Assembly (NCBI GenBank): GCA_035457725.1
Contig: DATIBC010000044.1
Location: 84,067-148,066, forward strand
From: Alphaproteobacteria bacterium
GTDB lineage: Bacteria > Pseudomonadota > Alphaproteobacteria > CACIAM-22H2
Length of the DNA stretch: 64,000 bases
Direction of reading: 5' to 3'
The translations under genes were made by a program, and so were the position numbers. How positions within the stretch are numbered: position 1 is the stretch's first letter; each line of letters starts with the position of its first letter. Below, one piece after another: positions 1 through 48,288 of this stretch. The notes below the pieces were generated by a model. That model ran no database searches and was not told where the DNA came from. It worked only from the letters and a program-made list of their open reading frames with translations.

Positions 1-648
1 TGTAGAGCCCGACGAGGAGAAAACCGGGAATGAACGCGCCGGCGAAAAGATCGCCCACCGAGACCGGATCGGGCGCGAAATTGCCCTTCTCGGCCTGCGC
101 CTGCGTGTTCGCCCCTTGCAGCACGTCGCCGACGAATATCAGCACGGTCGATGGCGGGATGATCTGGCCCAGCGTGCCCGAGGCGCAAATTATCCCAGTC
201 GCAAGTTTCGGATCGTAGCCGGCGCGCAGCATCGCCGGGAGGCTCAGCAGACCCATGGTCACCACGGTCGCGCCGACGATGCCGGTTGAAGCCGCAAGCA
301 TGGCGCCGACGATGATTACCGAGTATCCGAGCCCGCCGCGCATTCCGCCAAATATCTGTCCCATCGTCGTGAGCAGTACCTCGGCGATCCGCGATCGCTC
401 GAGCATCACGCCCATGAAAATGAACAGCGGCACCGCGACCAGGACCTCGTTGTTCATCACGCCCCAGAAACGGTTGGGTAGCGCACCGAGCAATTGCAGG
501 TCGAACGCGCCATAGGCATGGCCGAGCAATCCGAACAGGAGGGACGCGCCGCCGAGCGAGAAGGCCACCGGATAGCCGATCATCAACAGGAAGATCACGG
601 CGAGAAACATGGTGACGGCAAGAATCTCGCCGATGGTGTGCGGGTCGA
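1..648 (-). CDS. dctM: TRAP transporter large permease subunit DctM, partial; N-terminal ~216 aa visible and the gene continues beyond the window start
   Basis: Reverse-complement of 600-660 reads ATG-TTC-GGT-CTC-GAC-CCG-CAC-ACC-ATC-GGC-GAG-ATT-CTT (MFGLDPHTIGEIL...), a typical DctM N-terminus. The start codon sits at 648, 20 nt downstream of the dctQ stop. There is no stop in this frame down to position 1. The ORF track does not list it because it runs off the window edge. Confidence 0.7.
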
Positions 649-43062: not shown

Positions 43063-44838
43063 ATGACCGTCGACCAGGCGCTCGCGATATCGCTTGTCAT
43101 CGGTGCGCTTGGCCTCTTCGCCTGGGGTCGATGGCGCTACGATCTTGTAGCCCTGATCGCCCTTGCCGCGGGACTGGCGATGGGCGTCGTTCCAGCCGAC
43201 CAGGCGTTCGCCGGTTTCGGGCACCCCGCGGTGATCACGGTCGTCGCGGTGCTGATTGTCAGCCGCGCCTTGACGCTGTCGGGGGCAGTCGACGGGCTGG
43301 CCAAGGCGACCCTCCCGACCGCTGGCCCGGTATGGCTGCAGGTCGGCGCGCTGTCGATCGCAGTCGCAATGATGTCCGCCTTCATGAACAACGTCGGCGC
43401 CCTCGCCCTGATCATGCCGGCGGCGATCGCCGCGGCGAAGAAGTCGGAGCGATCGCCCTCGCTGATCTTGATGCCGATCGCGTTCGCCTCGATGCTTGGC
43501 GGCATGATCACACTGATCGGCACGCCGCCTAACCTGCTGGTCGCCGCCTATCGAGCCGAGGCGGTCGGCCGGCCCTTTGCGATGTTCGACTTCGCCCCGG
43601 TCGGCGGCGTCGTCGCGATTGTCGGCATCGTCTTCGTCGCGCTCGTCGGTTGGCGTCTTATACCGCGGGGAGCGCGCGCCGATCCCAAGGATCGCTTCGA
43701 TATCGCCGGCTATGTCATGGAGGCGCGGCTGCCCGACGACAGCGCGCATGCCGGCAAGTCGGTCGGCGAAATCGACGCGCTGCTGGAAAAAGACGACGTC
43801 GACGCGCTGGGGATCGTGCGCGCGAAGCACGAGATTCCTTGGAGCGCCACCTGGGAGCGCGTCGCGGGTGGTGACGTGTTGATCCTCGAAGGCACTCCCG
43901 ACGCCCTCAAAGTCGCGATCGACGGTTTGAAGCTCGAGCTGCCGGCCGATGACGCGCCGCCCGCGCCGCACCTCGAATCCGAGGAGATGTCGATTGTCGA
44001 GGCGGTGGTCATGCCGCGGGCACTGATCGACGGTCTGACCGCCGAGGAGATCCGGCTGCGGTCCCGCTATGACATCAGCCTGCTTGCGGTCGCGCGCGCC
44101 GGGTCTCGGCACCGCGGCCGCCTGAAGTCGTTTCGCTTTACCGCAGGTGACGTGCTACTGCTCCGCGGGCCAACGCGGCAGGTCAATTCGGCGATGTCGA
44201 TGCTGGGCCTGCTGCCGCTGGCTAGCCGCGGCGTCGGCCTCGGCCGCCCAGGGCGGGCGCTTGCCGCGGTTGCGATCACGCTGACCGCGCTGGTCGCTTC
44301 GGCGCTCTCATTGGCGCCCACCGCGGTCTGCTTTCTCGGCGCCGTTATCGTCCTGATCTTGTCGCGGTGCATTCGCCTCGGGGAGAGCTACGACGCGATC
44401 GATTGGCCGATCGTCGTGCTGCTCGGGGCGATGCTCCCCGTAGGCGGGGCGCTCGAGAGCACGGGTGCGACGAAATTTCTCGCCGACCTGTTCCTGTCCG
44501 CGGGCGACCGGATTTCGCCGATCTTGATGCTGGCGCTCGTCTTGATATTGACGATGACCATTTCGGATATCGTCAACAACGCGGCGACCGCGGTCATGAT
44601 GGCGCCGCTTGCGGTCGGGATCGCCCGCGGCCTTGAGGTCAATCCCGACGGATTCTTAATGGCCGTGGCGATCGGCGCATCGTGCGCCTTCCTCACGCCC
44701 ATCGGCCATCAGAACAACACCTTGGTCATGGGACCTGGAGGCTACCGCTTCGGCGATTATTGGCCGATGGGCTTGCCCCTCGAGATCATCGTGGTCGCCA
44801 CCGCGCTGCCGGCGATCCTCGTCATCTGGCCGTTGTGA
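43063..44838 (+). CDS. SLC13/DASS-family permease with two central TrkA-C (RCK_C) domains
   Basis: 591 aa. N- and C-terminal CitMHS/DASS transmembrane repeats flank a cytoplasmic TrkA-C pair. Confidence 0.8.
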   Translation: MTVDQALAISLVIGALGLFAWGRWRYDLVALIALAAGLAMGVVPADQAFAGFGHPAVITVVAVLIVSRALTLSGAVDGLAKATLPTAGPVWLQVGALSIAVAMMSAFMNNVGALALIMPAAIAAAKKSERSPSLILMPIAFASMLGGMITLIGTPPNLLVAAYRAEAVGRPFAMFDFAPVGGVVAIVGIVFVALVGWRLIPRGARADPKDRFDIAGYVMEARLPDDSAHAGKSVGEIDALLEKDDVDALGIVRAKHEIPWSATWERVAGGDVLILEGTPDALKVAIDGLKLELPADDAPPAPHLESEEMSIVEAVVMPRALIDGLTAEEIRLRSRYDISLLAVARAGSRHRGRLKSFRFTAGDVLLLRGPTRQVNSAMSMLGLLPLASRGVGLGRPGRALAAVAITLTALVASALSLAPTAVCFLGAVIVLILSRCIRLGESYDAIDWPIVVLLGAMLPVGGALESTGATKFLADLFLSAGDRISPILMLALVLILTMTISDIVNNAATAVMMAPLAVGIARGLEVNPDGFLMAVAIGASCAFLTPIGHQNNTLVMGPGGYRFGDYWPMGLPLEIIVVATALPAILVIWPL

Positions 44839-45036
44839 CGGCGCTATCCGGTGCTGCTGCCTCGGATTCGGCCGGTAAGCCATCATCCAAAAGCACGACT
44901 TGCCCTGCGGCTCGTTCCGAAATATTGTCAAAAAAAAGTCTAAAAGGCGTTCTTGCCGACGATTGACGCATAAGCTCAAACTTATGGTTAATTTTCGGCT
45001 GGGGCGCGAGCGATAAGAACAAGTCGGGGAGCGCCC

Positions 45037-45393
45037 ATGACCGATGTGATCTACGTGATCGCAGTGGCGATCACGTTGGCGATTGGTCTTCATTTGAGCG
45101 TCGTTAGCGGCTACGCGGCGAGCGCGGCTGCCGATCGCGACAAGCGCCACGGACGCCATGACGAAACGTTGGCGCTCGTGTCGCGCAGCCTGGGTATCGC
45201 ATCAGGGATCGCCGGCGTCGCCTTCGGCATCCGGGTTTTAACGTTGCTCGGCATCGCGTTGGTCGCGCTGTACGCGGTCATGACGGCCCGGCGCTTGGCG
45301 ATGATACCGGTTCAATTGGAGCTGCCGCTGATCGTGTTGTCGTTCATGGCGACGATTCCGATCGTGCTTTTGCGCAAATTCGGCGGAATTTAA
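45037..45393 (+). CDS. Hypothetical small membrane protein
   Basis: 118 aa with 3 predicted TM helices. It is preceded by an AT-rich promoter-like region. Confidence 0.4.
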   Translation: MTDVIYVIAVAITLAIGLHLSVVSGYAASAAADRDKRHGRHDETLALVSRSLGIASGIAGVAFGIRVLTLLGIALVALYAVMTARRLAMIPVQLELPLIVLSFMATIPIVLLRKFGGI

Positions 45394-45430
45394 AGACCGG
45401 GGTGGCGAATAACTGCAGGGGGGGACAGCA

Positions 45431-45658
45431 GTGACGACCATTGATACCGATGCGAGGGCGCCGATCGACGCCCTTATGCGCACGGGTGAGCTCTCGACGC
45501 ACGCAGGCTGGGCATTACGCAAGGCGGGGTTTCGTCAACTGACCGACGTATGCCTGCTGTCGCGCGACGATCTGCTATGCGTCCAGCGGCTCGGGAGCAA
45601 GGGCCTGCGCGAGGTGGAGCGAGCGCTGGCGACGCGCGGTTTGACGCTCTCGAGATAG
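45431..45658 (+). CDS. Stand-alone RNA polymerase alpha-subunit C-terminal-domain-like protein (HhH)
   Basis: 75 aa. ELSTHAGWALRKAGFRQLTDVCLLSRDDLLCVQRLGSKGLREVERALATRGLTL aligns along its length with RpoA alphaCTD ([55 protein letters not shown]). Confidence 0.5.
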   Translation: MTTIDTDARAPIDALMRTGELSTHAGWALRKAGFRQLTDVCLLSRDDLLCVQRLGSKGLREVERALATRGLTLSR

Positions 45659-45710
45659 GCGGCGATCGACGGATCGCCCGCAGGGCGGCTGAACACTCGG
45701 CCCAGAAGGT

Positions 45711-46124
45711 CTACTCGCGCGCCTTGGCGATGAGGTACGCCGCGACGTCGCCCGCCTTCGGCTTGATCGCCGCGGGGTCGCCGCCGTCGAGGGTCGCGCG
45801 CACGAGTAGCTGCGTGGCGACGTTGGCGATATTGGCCTTGAAGATGCCGCGCGCCCCCTTGAGCTTCGGATAATAGGTCGGATCGACGGTCTTCTCGCGC
45901 GCGGCAAGCCGCGCCAATACCGCAGCTTCATCGGCCTCGTCGATCGGCTCCTTGCGCAGCAGCTTCCAATCGCTCACTCCGGCGAACGCTGATTCGTTGA
46001 GCGAGGCGACCGTCGCAGCGGGGTCGCCATCGACCACGCCGACCTTGTAGGTATGCTTGGTGTGGCCGACGTCGGCGCTCCATTTCTGGAACGCCTGGCT
46101 GCGGGCGACATAGATGGTCGGCAC
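45711..46124 (-). CDS. Hypothetical protein (start uncertain)
   Basis: The ORF extends to 46292 but its first 27 codons overlap tRNA-Ser. The first plausible downstream start is GTG at 46124 (a CTG at 46163 is also possible). Codon bias is coding-like. No recognisable domain. Confidence 0.35.
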   Translation of the reverse strand: MPTIYVARSQAFQKWSADVGHTKHTYKVGVVDGDPAATVASLNESAFAGVSDWKLLRKEPIDEADEAAVLARLAAREKTVDPTYYPKLKGARGIFKANIANVATQLLVRATLDGGDPAAIKPKAGDVAAYLIAKARE

Positions 46125-46212
46125 GCCATGCTCCCTGTCGAACGTTCGCCTGGCCTCATGCAGGCCGTCCGCCGTCGCGTCGCCGTAGCCCCGCGAGCGA
46201 AGCGTCTCAGAC

Positions 46213-46306
46213 TGGCGGAGGGGATGGGATTCGAACCCACGATACGGCTTTAGGGCCGTATAACGGTTTAGCAAACCGCCGCCTTCAGCCACTCGGCCAC
46301 CCCTCC
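46213..46306 (-). tRNA. tRNA-Ser (anticodon GCT), class II with long variable arm, CCA encoded
   Basis: Folded by hand. Acceptor GGAGGGG/CCCCTCC, 3-bp D-stem GCC/GGC, anticodon stem GCGGT/ACCGT with loop TTGCTAA, variable arm stem ACGGC/GCCGT, T-arm GTGGG-TTCGAAT-CCCAT, discriminator G, then CCA. Confidence 0.85.
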
Positions 46307-46587
46307 GCCGGGAGTGGTGTCGTCACGGCGTATGCCGGGGCGGTTCTAGTGTCGCTTGGCCCGTCAGTCAAACGATTTGCATGATGCGAGCGAGGTAGAA
46401 CTTCCACTGCACTGGCTGGAAATTTCGGCACGACGAAAGGTTCGAAGGTTATCGGGTTGTTTACCATCCTGGATCGGCTCGAAATAGCGCATTTCGTTTC
46501 GTAAAATTTTACGCGCGATTAATGATTGATGTCCGAAGATGCCATGGTCGGTTAAGCCCGACGACGTTGCTGGGGAGAGAACGGACC

Positions 46588-46800
46588 ATGGCGCTCAATC
46601 GTCGCAGCATCGAGATGCTGCTCGACCTCGTCGACAACAAGCTCACATCGATGCAAGTGATCGACCGCGAAGACGCGCGCGAAATGGCGATGCTCGAAGC
46701 GGCCAAGCGCGAACTCGAAGCGCTCGCCGGCGTCAAGCGCCCGACATCGGTGGTGTCGATCGAAACCGGCCGCCGCCCGGCGCAGCGCATGGCGGTCTAA
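46588..46800 (+). CDS. Hypothetical small protein
   Basis: Internal ATG at 46588 (MALNRRSIEMLLDLVDNKL...). 70 aa, predicted helical. No recognisable domain. Confidence 0.3.
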   Translation: MALNRRSIEMLLDLVDNKLTSMQVIDREDAREMAMLEAAKRELEALAGVKRPTSVVSIETGRRPAQRMAV

Positions 46801-46828
46801 CGCCCGCCAGCCTTGGCGCCGGGGCGTT

Positions 46829-47449
46829 TTATTTCGGGACCGCCATTCCGCGCGGCACCGCTGGCCGCGCACCGATCTCGTCGAACCAACGCTTGACGTT
46901 GGCGAATTCGGCGAGGTTCACGCGATGCCATTCATGGCGCGCCACCCAAGGATAGGTGGCGATATCGGCGATCGTGTACTCATCCCCGGCCAGATAGCGA
47001 ACCTCCGACAAACGGCGATCCATCACCCCATAAAGCCGCGCCGCCTCCTTGCCGTAGCGTTCGATGCCATAGGGAACCTGCTCTTTGGCGTTGCGCATGA
47101 AATGATGCGCCTGGCCGAACATCGGCCCCACGCCGCCCATCTGGAACATCAGCCACTGCATGACGATGTAGCGCCGCGGCGCGTCGGCGGGAAAGAATTT
47201 CCCGGTTTTCTCGGCGAGGTAAAACAGGATCGCCCCCGACTCGAATAGCCTCAGCGGCGCGCCGCCGGGCCCGTCGGGATCGACGATCGCCGGAATCTTG
47301 CTGTTCGGGTTGATGGCGATGAAATGGGGCGTGTATTGGTCGCCCTTGCCGATGTCGATCTTATGAGCCGTGTAGGGCAGCCCCAACTCTTCCAGCATGA
47401 TCGAGACCTTGCGGCCGTTCGGTGTCGTCCAGGTATACAGATCGATCAT
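46829..47449 (-). CDS. Glutathione S-transferase (YfcG/YghU-like)
   Basis: 206 aa with an N-terminal thioredoxin-like GST domain (IDLYTWTTPNGRKV) and a C-terminal helical domain. Confidence 0.8.
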   Translation of the reverse strand: MIDLYTWTTPNGRKVSIMLEELGLPYTAHKIDIGKGDQYTPHFIAINPNSKIPAIVDPDGPGGAPLRLFESGAILFYLAEKTGKFFPADAPRRYIVMQWLMFQMGGVGPMFGQAHHFMRNAKEQVPYGIERYGKEAARLYGVMDRRLSEVRYLAGDEYTIADIATYPWVARHEWHRVNLAEFANVKRWFDEIGARPAVPRGMAVPK

Positions 47450-47493: not shown

Positions 47494-48288
47494 TCACGTC
47501 GCGACGCGATCTTCCTTGGGCATGATGGCGTAGGGATGCGCCGCGCCAGGCAGTTTCAGCATCCGTTCGGCCCAGTCGCGCACGTTGGGATAGCGCGCCA
47601 CGTCGAACCCTCCCTCCTCGGCCGTTGCCACCCACGGAAAGATGGCGACATCGGCGATGGTCGGCTGCGGGCCGGCGACGAACTTGCTTGCGCCGAGCTG
47701 GCGATCGAGCGTCGCCAGCGCCTGCTCGCCGCGGGCGCGGAAGAACTCCATCACCGGCGGCTCCTGCCGCCAGAATCGTTTCGCCGCCCGAGCGAACCCG
47801 AGACCGCTTGCCATGCGATCGAGGTCCCATGCCAGCCATTCGGCGACGCGCTGCCGTTCGGCCGGCGTCCGGCCGGCGAACCGGCCGAACTTGTCGGCGA
47901 GATATTGCAGGATCACGTTCGACTGGCAGAGGAAGGTCGACCCGTCCTGCAGCACTGGCACCTGCCCAAAGCGGTTCTTGGCGAGAAATTCCGGCCGCTT
48001 GTTCTCGCCGGCCATGAGATCGACGTGCTTGTAATCGAAATTCGCGCCGCAAAGCGACAGCATCAGGCCGACCTTGCACGAGGGCAGCGAAAAGTGCAGC
48101 CCATACAGCACGAGGCGATCCGCTGGCCGGGCCGTGGCCTTGCGCGCCCGGATGGCGCGCTTCAATCGTGCGCCCCTGGCGGCGCGCACGGCCGACCGTT
48201 GGGCCGCGCGTTTGATCTTCGCCGACGCTCGAATGGTCTTGGATACCTTGCGGCGCGCCGATTTCTTGACCGTCTTCCTGCGTGCCAT
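47494..48288 (-). CDS. Glutathione S-transferase with ~58-aa Lys/Arg-rich N-terminal extension
   Basis: The GST core starts at LVLYGLHFSLPSCKVGLMLSL. Upstream, in the same frame with no stop, lies MARRKTVKKSARRKVSKTIRASAKIKRAAQRSAVRAARGARLKRAIRARKATARPADR. Its high third-position GC is consistent with coding. Confidence 0.65.
   Translation of the reverse strand: MARRKTVKKSARRKVSKTIRASAKIKRAAQRSAVRAARGARLKRAIRARKATARPADRLVLYGLHFSLPSCKVGLMLSLCGANFDYKHVDLMAGENKRPEFLAKNRFGQVPVLQDGSTFLCQSNVILQYLADKFGRFAGRTPAERQRVAEWLAWDLDRMASGLGFARAAKRFWRQEPPVMEFFRARGEQALATLDRQLGASKFVAGPQPTIADVAIFPWVATAEEGGFDVARYPNVRDWAERMLKLPGAAHPYAIMPKEDRVAT

What the first reader, a model, noticed from the sequence alone, without database searches (positions are those of the whole stretch)
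45431..45658. Free-standing RNA polymerase alpha-CTD-like protein
The 75-aa ORF aligns along its whole length with the helix-hairpin-helix DNA and activator-contact domain of RpoA, conserving the LS.R..N.L......I.DL......DLL...N.G.KSL.EI...L...GL.L pattern. It lacks the alpha N-terminal assembly domain. A detached alphaCTD could act as a decoy for UP-element or activator interactions, or as a small DNA-binding regulator. Such proteins are rarely characterised.
Basis: partly seen in the sequence, partly recalled or inferred. Interest (0 to 1): 0.5.

Follow-up and report, generated by a model that had tools for sequence, protein, structure and literature searches.

The report
Stand-alone alpha-CTD-like protein with membrane partner

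Summary
The ORF at 45431..45658 (+, GTG start, 75 aa) is a real gene. It passes the Pfam RNA_pol_A_CTD threshold (25.7 vs 23.8 bits). Its AlphaFold model superposes on solved alpha-CTDs (TM 0.78-0.83, rmsd 1.0-1.9 A). It is under strong purifying selection in its own frame only (dN/dS 0.07 against a 93%-identical orthologue). E. coli R265, N268, N294 and S299 are H/Y, W, R and G in every member, so 3 of 7 '265 determinant' positions and 1 of 8 '287 determinant' positions are kept. The protein is basic (pI 9.5, against 5.1 for E. coli alpha-CTD). The subfamily is very rare: six 90% clusters among 5.8 billion proteins, all from soil Alphaproteobacteria MAGs. In every context seen, a 116-118-aa multi-pass membrane-protein gene lies 36-43 nt upstream. 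I found no phage, plasmid, defence-system or att-repeat association. Most likely it is a small basic helix-hairpin-helix nucleic-acid-binding or regulatory protein coupled to its membrane partner. It is unlikely to be a faithful UP-element or activator decoy. Stand-alone alpha-CTD-like proteins are already named in NCBI and UniProt and are common in phages. This is therefore a new, divergent member of a known but uncharacterised kind. Interest is modest.

The parts
45431..45658 (+). Gene for the 75-aa stand-alone alpha-CTD-like (double helix-hairpin-helix) protein; GTG start, stop codon included
   Evidence: ORF list. Pfam PF03118 25.7 bits against a 23.8 cut-off. AF2 model with pLDDT 82 superposes on RpoA alpha-CTDs at TM 0.78-0.83. 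dN/dS 0.073. The identical protein is in NCBI as HSE77783.1, 'DNA-directed RNA polymerase subunit alpha C-terminal domain-containing protein'.
45417..45425 (+). Shine-Dalgarno-like G-run AGGGGGGGA, 5 nt before the GTG start
   Evidence: Read from the sequence. Conserved as AAGGGGGG in L011. Residues 2-4 (TTI) and 10-15 are conserved among short-type homologues, which supports this start over the internal Met16.
45037..45393 (+). Gene for a 118-aa membrane protein with 3-4 hydrophobic segments; conserved partner of the alpha-CTD-like gene, ending 37 nt before it
   Evidence: No Pfam, PADLOC or significant PHROG hit. Hydropathy profile. Homologous to the gene directly upstream of the alpha-CTD homologue in L012 (38% identity, E 2e-20). 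The same arrangement is seen in L011, L014, L015, L018 and the P0006 contig. dN/dS 0.117. Invariant H19, R50, S51, R85, P91 and P97.
44839..45036 (+). 198-nt lower-GC intergenic region upstream of the pair, presumed to be the promoter region. It holds an A-tract (44919-44947), a candidate -35/-10 pair (TTGACG 44963-44968, then 18 nt, then GTTAAT 44987-44992) and the motif TTATGGTTAAT (44982-44992).
   Evidence: GC 0.58-0.61 here against 0.63-0.70 around it. Coordinates. The consensus promoter scan found nothing. The motif recurs as a 13-bp tandem repeat upstream of the homologous pair in L018 and L012. The window-to-L012 similarity is not above shuffles. Any functional role is inference only.
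45661..45678 (+). Perfect 7-bp-stem hairpin GGCGATC-GACG-GATCGCC, 3 nt after the stop codon, with no T-run
   Evidence: Read from the sequence. Folding of 45640-45720 is not better than shuffles (z -1.06). The terminator scan is negative. A terminator role is unproven.

Best explanation
The ORF is a genuine, selectively maintained gene for a 75-residue cytoplasmic protein. The protein is nothing but an alpha-CTD-type double helix-hairpin-helix domain. It forms the second gene of a two-gene module; co-transcription is inferred from the 37-nt gap and the absence of a promoter or terminator between the genes. The first gene encodes a 118-aa multi-pass membrane protein. The module is restricted to a few uncultured soil Alphaproteobacteria and lies in an ordinary chromosomal neighbourhood.

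The segments most conserved across the subfamily are GELS[ST][HY]AGWALRKAG and RLG[SR]KGL.EVERA. These are the two elements that form the DNA-binding face of RpoA alpha-CTD: the N-terminus of helix 1 and the second hairpin. So the same face is probably the working surface. Its chemistry has changed, however (R265 to H/Y, N268 to W, N294 to R, S299 to G, with G296 and K298 kept), and the protein is basic.

I therefore think it most likely acts as a small HhH nucleic-acid-binding or regulatory protein with its own specificity. Its activity or location would be tied to the membrane partner, for example by sequestration and release, or by acting at the membrane. It is unlikely to be a faithful mimic of alpha-CTD.

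Shown: the gene is real, the fold, the residue changes, the rarity, and the conserved pairing. Inferred: co-transcription, nucleic-acid binding, and coupling to the membrane protein.
For: Fold and family: Pfam PF03118 above cut-off. All PDB sequence hits are RpoA alpha-CTD. The AF2 model (pLDDT 82) gives Foldseek top hits 3gfk_B, 1lb2_B and 3n97_B, with TM 0.73-0.83 and rmsd 1.0-1.9 A over 65-74 columns.

Real gene: dN/dS 0.073 in frame, against at least 0.21 in all other frames.

Module: the membrane gene is directly upstream, with a gap of 36-43 nt, in the window, L001-L011, L012, L014, L015, L018 and the P0006 contig. The two membrane proteins are homologous. Both genes are about equally rare: 6 and 4 clusters in the 5.8-billion-protein collection. 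In the long type both are under purifying selection (omega 0.12 and 0.09).

Working face: invariant columns cluster in residues 11-33 and 51-65.

Charge: pI 9.5 and 10.1, against 5.1 for E. coli alpha-CTD.

Residue mapping: with determinant definitions from PMC10853779 and PMC1874639.

Chromosomal setting: neighbours are a CitMHS transporter, isochorismatase, GSTs, GatB and tRNA-Ser. GC3 is 0.77, against 0.79-0.84 for neighbours.
Against: There is no direct evidence for nucleic-acid binding or for contact with the membrane protein. R265, the residue most important for alpha-CTD DNA binding, is replaced. An invariant Trp on the conserved face fits a protein-protein interface equally well. The structural model rests on a 4-sequence alignment. 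No promoter or terminator was detected by the consensus scans, so the operon structure is inferred from spacing only. The upstream AT-rich motif shared with L012 and L018 is not statistically supported for the window (3 matches in the window against 1.9 expected by chance). The host's own RpoA is not in the window, so the comparison uses E. coli numbering.
Confidence: 0.45

Rival explanations
1. Alpha-CTD mimic or decoy. The free domain competes with the RNA polymerase alpha-CTD for UP-element DNA, for sigma region 4, for activators or for NusA, and so damps or redirects transcription.
For: It has the same fold. The E261 equivalent (E20) is invariant and K271 is conservatively R30. G296, K298 and E302 are kept. 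An A-tract lies upstream of its own operon.
Against: 265 determinant: 3 of 7 kept, with R265 to H/Y and N268 to W in all six clusters. 287 determinant: 1 of 8 kept, and the chain ends before 317/318. D258 becomes R, a charge reversal. The pI is 9.5 against 5.1. Other stand-alone alpha-CTDs (P0134, P0128, P0124) do keep R265, N268 and K-S, so loss here is specific to this subfamily. A decoy would not obviously need a membrane partner.
Confidence: 0.15
2. Pure protein-protein module. The HhH domain is the soluble subunit or adaptor of a small membrane complex formed with the 118-aa protein, and has no nucleic-acid role.
For: Strict co-occurrence and co-rarity with the membrane protein. There is an invariant Trp and Ala/Gly-rich surface where alpha-CTD has polar DNA contacts. 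Related HhH domains, namely alpha-CTD itself, the RAD51 N-terminal domain and NusA, also mediate protein contacts and appear among the fold hits (general knowledge).
Against: It is basic, with 12 Arg+Lys against 9 Asp+Glu. The hairpin Gly-x-Lys that contacts phosphate in alpha-CTD is retained. The membrane protein's cytoplasmic loop (residues about 26-45) is its least conserved part.
Confidence: 0.2
3. Remnant or cargo of a mobile element integrated at the neighbouring tRNA-Ser, or a toxin-antitoxin or anti-host pair like the phage-borne alpha-CTD proteins.
For: tRNA-Ser(GCU) lies 555 nt downstream, with its 3' end facing the gene. GC dips locally to 0.58-0.61. Many stand-alone alpha-CTD proteins are phage- or plasmid-encoded. 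There is a weak PHROG spanin hit for the membrane protein (E 0.029).
Against: There is no second copy of the tRNA 3' end in 64 kb. No integrase or phage genes are in the neighbourhood. No relative was found in IMG/VR or INPHARED, and only one distant plasmid hit with a different architecture. PADLOC gave nothing. Synteny with housekeeping neighbours is kept between the window and L011 at dS of about 0.5. GC3 is host-like.
Confidence: 0.07
4. Non-functional ORF: a chance open frame in GC-rich DNA, or a decaying fragment of a duplicated rpoA 3' end.
For: It is short, has a GTG start and is only 28-31% identical to RpoA alpha-CTDs. Overlapping ORFs exist in other frames, as expected in 65% GC DNA.
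Against: dN/dS is 0.073, with 19 synonymous and 5 non-synonymous codon changes. It is conserved at 52-58% identity in Acetobacteraceae-type MAGs, where the alpha-CTD part has omega 0.12. The Pfam score is above threshold and the fold prediction is confident.
Confidence: 0.02

Closest known systems
C-terminal domain of the bacterial RNA polymerase alpha subunit (RpoA alpha-CTD; PDB 1LB2, 3N97, 3K4G, 3GFK/1Z3E, 9ZUM)
   Same: The same double helix-hairpin-helix fold in the predicted structure (TM 0.73-0.83, rmsd 1.0-1.9 A). Pfam PF03118 above threshold. 28-31% identity. G296, K298, E302, E261 and L289 equivalents are kept.
   Different: No N-terminal assembly domain and no linker. R265 to H/Y, N268 to W, C269 to A, N294 to R, S299 to G. 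The 287 determinant is essentially absent. It is basic instead of acidic. It is encoded next to a membrane-protein gene and not in the ribosomal-protein/rpoA cluster.
Stand-alone 'RNA polymerase alpha subunit C-terminal domain-containing proteins' of phages and mobile elements. Examples: BFVD A0A6J5MNY7, A0A6J5QDR9, Rhodococcus phage Finch A0A2P1JY10; metagenomic P0134, P0128, P0124; Ralstonia pRMAN01 WP_024542472.1.
   Same: A detached alpha-CTD-like domain in a small protein, with the same database name and no experimental function that I could find.
   Different: Those are usually 100-240 aa with extra N-terminal sequence. They keep R265, N268 and K-S. They sit in phage-like gene arrays or beside an ART-PolyVal protein or a DNA methyltransferase. 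This subfamily is chromosomal, 75 aa, has altered contact residues and has a dedicated membrane partner.
Multi-repeat alpha-CTD proteins (e.g. P0004, 570 aa with 7 PF03118 repeats; P0005, 514 aa with 7 repeats)
   Same: Best-scoring non-subfamily hits in the exhaustive HMMER search. They share the PF03118/HHH_5 domain.
   Different: They are long arrays of canonical repeats (LS.R..N.L ... G.KS), and their high scores come from summing repeats. They are not orthologues.
Other (HhH)2 modules: RAD51/RAD51D N-terminal domain, NusA C-terminal acidic repeats, TfoX C-terminal domain
   Same: Lower-ranked fold hits (RAD51 chains, TM 0.56-0.66; NusA 5lm9 for the long-type model). They share the general HhH architecture, which is used for both DNA and protein contacts.
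   Different: Sequence and fold scores are clearly lower than for alpha-CTD. No Pfam hit to these families was found for the window protein.
NCBIfam NF005841 / PRK07758 (95-aa hypothetical protein family containing an alpha-CTD-like segment)
   Same: A small stand-alone protein aligned over residues 20-72.
   Different: 14 bits against a cut-off of 115, E 0.047. It is not a member.

Membership tests
RpoA, DNA-directed RNA polymerase alpha subunit | N-terminal dimerisation and core-assembly domain preceding the CTD | tested here: not met
   The protein is 75 aa. Pfam finds only PF03118. RpoA equivalog HMMs score 14-28 bits against cut-offs of 228-523 and align only to their last ~55 positions.
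RpoA, DNA-directed RNA polymerase alpha subunit | DNA-binding '265 determinant' (E. coli 265, 268, 294, 296, 298, 299, 302; PMC10853779) | tested here: not met
   The equivalents are H24, W27, R53, G55, K57, G58 and E61, so 3 of 7 are kept. The same substitutions occur in all six clusters (Y replaces H in the long type).
RpoA, DNA-directed RNA polymerase alpha subunit | Activator-contact '287 determinant' (285-289, 315, 317, 318; PMC10853779) | tested here: not met
   The equivalents are S44, R45, D46, D47, L48 and S74, and the chain ends at 75. Only 1 of 8 is kept.
RpoA, DNA-directed RNA polymerase alpha subunit | Sigma-region-4-contact '261 determinant' (around D258, D259, E261; PMC1874639) | tested here: inconclusive
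   E20 equals E261 and is invariant. D258 becomes R17 and D259 becomes T/S18. HMMER and MAFFT disagree on the alignment N-terminal to residue 20 by a 4-residue gap.
Pfam PF03118 RNA_pol_A_CTD domain family (includes stand-alone alpha-CTD-like proteins) | Sequence score at or above the curated gathering threshold (23.8 bits) | tested here: met
   Window protein 25.7 bits. P0003 30.8 bits. The long-type relatives fall below threshold (14.8 and 18.7 bits).
Pfam PF03118 RNA_pol_A_CTD domain family (includes stand-alone alpha-CTD-like proteins) | Compact double helix-hairpin-helix fold superposable on solved alpha-CTD | tested here: met
   The AF2 model has pLDDT 82 and pTM 0.68. Its top 30 Foldseek PDB hits are all RpoA alpha-CTD, with TM 0.67-0.83. 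This is a prediction from a 4-sequence alignment, not a solved structure.
Pfam PF03118 RNA_pol_A_CTD domain family (includes stand-alone alpha-CTD-like proteins) | Binding to DNA (minor groove or backbone of AT-rich DNA) | not testable with these tools
   Only indirect evidence: basic pI and the retained Gly-x-Lys hairpin.
Phage- or mobile-element-borne stand-alone alpha-CTD proteins | Encoded in a phage, plasmid or integrative-element context | tested here: not met
   No relative in IMG/VR or INPHARED. One distant plasmid hit with a different architecture. No PHROG or PADLOC match for the protein. No att-like repeat of the tRNA-Ser 3' end.
Sigma / membrane anti-sigma-type pair | The soluble partner carries sigma-70 regions 2 and 4 | tested here: not met
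   The window protein has no such hit. The only hint is Sigma70_r4 at 15.5 bits (cut-off 24.1) in the N-terminal extension of P0006. That extension evolves almost neutrally (omega 0.65, 25-62% identity). The fold search of the long-type model returned only alpha-CTD hits.

The most novel reading that the evidence does not exclude
The pair could be a previously undescribed membrane-coupled transcription switch. A re-tooled alpha-CTD module (H/Y, W and R in place of R265, N268 and N294) would be held or released by a dedicated small membrane protein. When free, it would dock on AT-rich promoter DNA, such as the TATGGTTAA repeats upstream of its own operon, or on RNA polymerase or sigma region 4, to reprogramme transcription. 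That would be a regulator class built from an RNAP subunit domain.
Probability: 0.1. Interest if true: 0.65.

Novelty: new member of a known kind. Interest (0 to 1): 0.3.

Why it matters
Alpha-CTD is the main docking point for activators and UP elements on bacterial RNA polymerase. Detached copies of it are common in sequence databases, especially in phages, yet I could find no experimental study of one. This subfamily is a clean, minimal case. It has 75 residues and a single domain, it is under strong selection, its canonical DNA-contact residues are replaced, and its genetic partner is fixed. That makes it a tractable entry point for asking what free alpha-CTD-like domains do. If it proves to be only a small DNA-binding protein of a few soil bacteria, the wider impact is small.

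Tried and rejected
1. Genomic island at tRNA-Ser. I searched the 25-nt and 17-nt 3' end of the tRNA with up to 3 mismatches across the window and found only the tRNA itself.

2. Phage, plasmid or defence association. The IMG/VR scan, INPHARED tblastn, PHROGs and PADLOC gave nothing for the protein. One distant Ralstonia plasmid protein has a different architecture.

3. HTH + alpha-CTD fusion. The 124-aa 'long type' has an N-terminal extension with a sub-threshold Sigma70_r4 hit. That extension has omega 0.65 and 25-62% identity, against omega 0.12 and 83-91% identity for the alpha-CTD part. Internal starts with Shine-Dalgarno-like sequences exist just before the domain: ATG in L012 and GAGGAAccgTTG in L018. 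The fold search gave only alpha-CTD hits. I treat the hint as probably spurious.

4. Shared operator in upstream regions. The window and L012 share only (T)ATGGTTAA(T). The local alignment is no better than 107 of 500 shuffles, and the window-wide motif count is at chance.

5. Consensus promoter and terminator scan of 44700-46400: none found. The hairpin after the stop codon is not better than shuffles.

6. Rfam on 44500-46900: only the tRNA.

7. Second alpha-CTD copy or rpoA in the window: none.

8. Literature. Six full-text searches for stand-alone, orphan or alpha-CTD-like proteins found nothing relevant.

9. The AFDB fold library was unavailable.

10. L013 (Kiritimatiellae, 26-residue match) was not examined.

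Full report
**What is there.** Window 45431..45658 (+) is an open reading frame of 75 codons with a GTG start. A G-rich Shine-Dalgarno-like run (AGGGGGGGA, 45417-45425) precedes it. The product is MTTIDTDARAPIDALMRTGELSTHAGWALRKAGFRQLTDVCLLSRDDLLCVQRLGSKGLREVERALATRGLTLSR.

It matches one Pfam family, PF03118 RNA_pol_A_CTD. The match is just above the curated threshold: 25.7 bits against 23.8, E 9.6e-6, residues 20-67 aligned to profile positions 19-66 of 67. NCBIfam RpoA equivalog models align only their last ~55 positions and score 14-28 bits against cut-offs of 228-523. The protein is therefore not an alpha subunit. All 40 PDB sequences reached by phmmer are RpoA chains or isolated alpha-CTDs (best 8dkc_A at E 6.5e-4; B. 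subtilis 1z3e_B at 4e-3; E. coli 1lb2_B at 0.02).

An AlphaFold2 model has mean pLDDT 82 and pTM 0.68, with residues 1-6 disordered and five to six short helices. In Foldseek against the PDB, its first 30 hits are all alpha-CTD. Examples are 3gfk_B (TM 0.79, rmsd 1.0 A over 67 columns), 1lb2_B, 3n97_B and 9a4w_A (TM 0.83). The model rests on only four aligned sequences, so it is supportive and not decisive.

**Is it a real gene?** Yes. Ten metagenomic contigs carry a nearly identical gene, with 0-1 nucleotide differences. The orthologue in L011 (Alphaproteobacteria MAG SMAG_U8614) differs at 27 of 228 nucleotides. Those changes give 19 synonymous and only 5 non-synonymous codon changes, the latter mostly at the two ends. 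By Nei-Gojobori, dS is 0.47, dN is 0.034 and omega is 0.073. The other five reading frames of the same stretch give omega 0.21-10.9. GC at third codon positions (0.77) resembles the neighbouring genes (0.79-0.84).

I validated E. coli numbering by matching my recalled alpha-CTD sequence exactly to residues 249-329 of E. coli RpoA chains. I then aligned it with the subfamily. Window residue n corresponds to E. coli residue n+241.

- The '265 determinant' that binds DNA is defined as residues 265, 268, 294, 296, 298, 299 and 302 (PMC10853779; see also PMC1874639). It maps to H24, W27, R53, G55, K57, G58 and E61. Only G296, K298 and E302 are kept.
- The '287 determinant' (285-289, 315, 317, 318) maps to S44, R45, D46, D47, L48 and S74, and then the chain ends. 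One of eight positions is kept.
- E261 is kept (E20). D258 becomes R and D259 becomes T/S. The alignment upstream of residue 20 is uncertain.

The same replacements are invariant across all six sequence clusters of the subfamily, with Y in place of H in the long type. Other stand-alone alpha-CTD proteins (P0134, P0128, P0124) retain R, N and K-S. So the quoted 'LS.R..N.L ... N.G.KSL' pattern is not literally present, and it fails at the functionally defined positions. The protein is also basic (pI 9.5; relative P0006 is 10.1), whereas E. coli alpha-CTD is acidic (5.1).

**Distribution.**
- A word-indexed search of 5.8 billion proteins found three clusters (100, 93 and 80% identity).
- An exhaustive HMMER search of 1.84 billion representatives found 293 hits at E of 1e-3 or better. 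Apart from P0002 and P0006 (124 aa, 52% identity, sharing GELS[ST][HY]AGWALRKAG), these are generic PF03118 proteins. Many are long arrays of 3-8 canonical alpha-CTD repeats.
- A profile search added two more long-type clusters, giving six in all.
- GTDB species genomes gave L011 and L012, an uncultured Acetobacteraceae MAG. JGI metagenomes gave one contig. IMG/VR gave none.
- NCBI already names the exact protein (HSE77783.1) 'DNA-directed RNA polymerase subunit alpha C-terminal domain-containing protein'.

**The neighbourhood and the conserved partner.** Upstream, on the same strand, a 118-codon gene (45037..45393) ends 37 nt before the GTG. Its product has three to four hydrophobic segments: roughly residues 4-25, 46-84 and 90-112, with a charged loop at 26-45. 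It has no Pfam or PADLOC family. Its only PHROG hit is a weak spanin match (E 0.029), which I discount.

In L012 the alpha-CTD homologue is again directly preceded by a 116-aa membrane-protein gene. That protein is 38% identical to the window's (E 2e-20). The same arrangement is present in L011, L014 (the contig begins in ...VLRRFGGI*), L015, L018 and the short P0006 contig, with gaps of 36-43 nt.

The membrane protein is as rare as its partner: four clusters in 5.8 billion proteins, all at 85% identity or more. It is under purifying selection (omega 0.12 for the window against L011; 0.09 for L012 against L018). It has invariant polar residues inside its hydrophobic segments, namely H19, R50, S51, R85, P91 and P97.

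The genes beyond the pair are not conserved between the two lineages. In the window these are a CitMHS transporter upstream, and a hypothetical gene plus tRNA-Ser downstream. L012 and L018 have an amidohydrolase-like gene downstream. The unit that travels together is therefore the two-gene pair. This is the main new observation.

**Not a mobile element.** The tRNA-Ser(GCU) at 46213..46306 (-) points its 3' end towards the gene. However, no repeat of its 3' end exists in the 64-kb window. No integrase or phage genes are nearby. Phage, plasmid, PHROG and PADLOC searches are negative, apart from one distant 234-aa Ralstonia plasmid protein that sits beside a DNA cytosine methyltransferase.

The broader class does include many phage proteins. 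BFVD holds numerous 98-139-aa 'RNA polymerase, alpha subunit, C-terminal' proteins of uncultured Caudovirales, plus examples from Rhodococcus phage Finch and Mycobacterium phage Mithril, that superpose on the model at TM 0.68-0.82. Metagenomic stand-alone examples lie in arrays of small overlapping genes or next to an ART-PolyVal protein.

**The long type.** Three clusters are annotated as 124 aa, with a 55-residue N-terminal extension. One of them gives a sub-threshold Sigma70_r4 hit (15.5 bits against 24.1), and AF2 predicts three helices there. Several points argue against this extension being functional:
- It is only 25-62% identical between members, against 83-91% for the alpha-CTD part.
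- It has omega 0.65, against 0.12 for the alpha-CTD part.
- Plausible internal starts with Shine-Dalgarno-like sequences sit just before the domain.
- The fold search returned only alpha-CTD hits.

I regard an HTH fusion as unsupported.

**Cis elements.** The 198-nt region upstream of the membrane gene (44839-45036) is the least GC-rich stretch locally (0.58-0.61). It contains an A-tract (44919-44947) and a possible -35/-10 pair (TTGACG, then 18 nt, then GTTAAT). The consensus scan reported no promoter.

The sequence TTATGGTTAAT (44982-44992) recurs upstream of the homologous pair as a 13-bp tandem repeat. L018 has TATGGTTAA[T/C]AGA in 3.8 copies, and L012 has about three copies. For the window, this resemblance is not above chance. 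Rfam finds only the tRNA.

**Mechanism.** The subfamily's invariant residues concentrate in residues 11-33 and 51-65. In alpha-CTD these correspond to the N-terminus of helix 1 and the second hairpin, which together form the DNA-binding face. The phosphate-contacting Gly-x-Lys is kept. The net charge is positive. The minor-groove-reading Arg and Asn are replaced by His/Tyr and Trp.

My best reading (confidence about 0.45) is a small HhH nucleic-acid-binding or regulatory protein with specificity different from alpha-CTD, functionally tied to its membrane partner. The rivals are:
- a pure protein-protein adaptor of a membrane complex (0.2);
- a true alpha-CTD decoy (0.15), disfavoured by the determinant analysis and the charge;
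- a mobile-element or toxin-antitoxin-like pair (0.07);
- a non-functional ORF (0.02).

None of the functional steps is shown. What is shown is the gene's reality, the fold, the altered residues, the rarity and the conserved pairing.

**Comparison with what is known, and verdict.** It works with the alpha-CTD fold but is not RpoA. It is a member of the PF03118 domain family by score and predicted fold. It fails the DNA-binding and activator-contact residue tests that define alpha-CTD function in E. coli. Stand-alone alpha-CTD-domain proteins are a recognised but uncharacterised annotation class, and I found no paper on them in six searches. I therefore file it as a new, divergent member of a known kind. 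Its one notable extra is the dedicated membrane partner. Interest is 0.3.

Noticed in passing
window 45711..46292 (-) and tRNA-Ser(GCU) 46213..46306 (-): The mechanical ORF, and the 176-178-aa gene calls on identical contigs, for the convergent downstream hypothetical protein run into the tRNA-Ser gene. The L011 orthologue is 143 aa (TTG start, MNRERGVPTIYVARSQ...), so the true start is probably near 46140. It has no Pfam, PHROG or PADLOC hit. It is conserved in L011 but absent next to the pair in L012 and L018.
   Followed up: partly
L018 290..339; L012 ~70..110; window 44982..44992: A 13-bp AT-rich tandem repeat, TATGGTTAA[T/C]AGA, lies upstream of the membrane-protein/alpha-CTD pair. L018 has 3.8 copies and L012 about 3. 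The window and L011 have a single copy (TTATGGTTAAT), 45 nt before the membrane gene's ATG. It could be an operator or promoter element of the module, but the window match is not above chance.
   Followed up: partly
window 44919..44947: An A-tract, GAAATATTGTCAAAAAAAAGTCTAAAAGG, in a ~65% GC genome. It is conserved in L011 and partly in L012, just upstream of a candidate promoter for the pair.
   Followed up: partly
window 47494..48288 (-): One of two adjacent glutathione S-transferase genes has an ORF with a ~60-residue Lys/Arg/Ala-rich N-terminal extension (MARRKTVKKSARRKVSKTIRASAKIKRAAQR...) before the GST_N domain, which starts at residue 61. This is either a histone-H1-like basic tail fused to a GST or an over-extended start.
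   Followed up: no
proteins P0004 (570 aa), P0005 (514 aa), P0012 (1031 aa): Metagenomic proteins made of 7-8 tandem canonical alpha-CTD (PF03118) repeats. These arrays of an RNAP subunit domain are the top non-subfamily hits, and their origin and function are unknown to me.
   Followed up: no
contig of P0124; L016; L019 3521..5139 (Ralstonia plasmid pRMAN01): Other stand-alone or C-terminal alpha-CTD-domain proteins sit in mobile-element-like settings. One is next to a 554-aa ART-PolyVal protein. One lies in a run of overlapping small genes. One (234 aa) abuts a DNA cytosine methyltransferase near an H-NS gene.
   Followed up: partly
L012 546..920, L018 774..1148: The 124-aa 'long type' gene calls probably over-extend the N-terminus. 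The first 55 codons evolve almost neutrally (omega 0.65). Internal starts with Shine-Dalgarno-like sequences (ATG in L012; GAGGAAccgTTG in L018) lie just before the conserved domain.
   Followed up: partly
window 46522..46800 (+): A 92-aa ORF between tRNA-Ser and the GST genes has no family match. A Cas6 PADLOC hit at E 0.007 (14.5 bits) is probably spurious. A 15-nt-period tandem repeat lies at 46677-46713 inside it.
   Followed up: no
L013 8001..8078 (Kiritimatiellae MAG): A 26-residue match (54% identity) to the IDALMR...GWALRK segment in an unrelated phylum. It was not examined.
   Followed up: no
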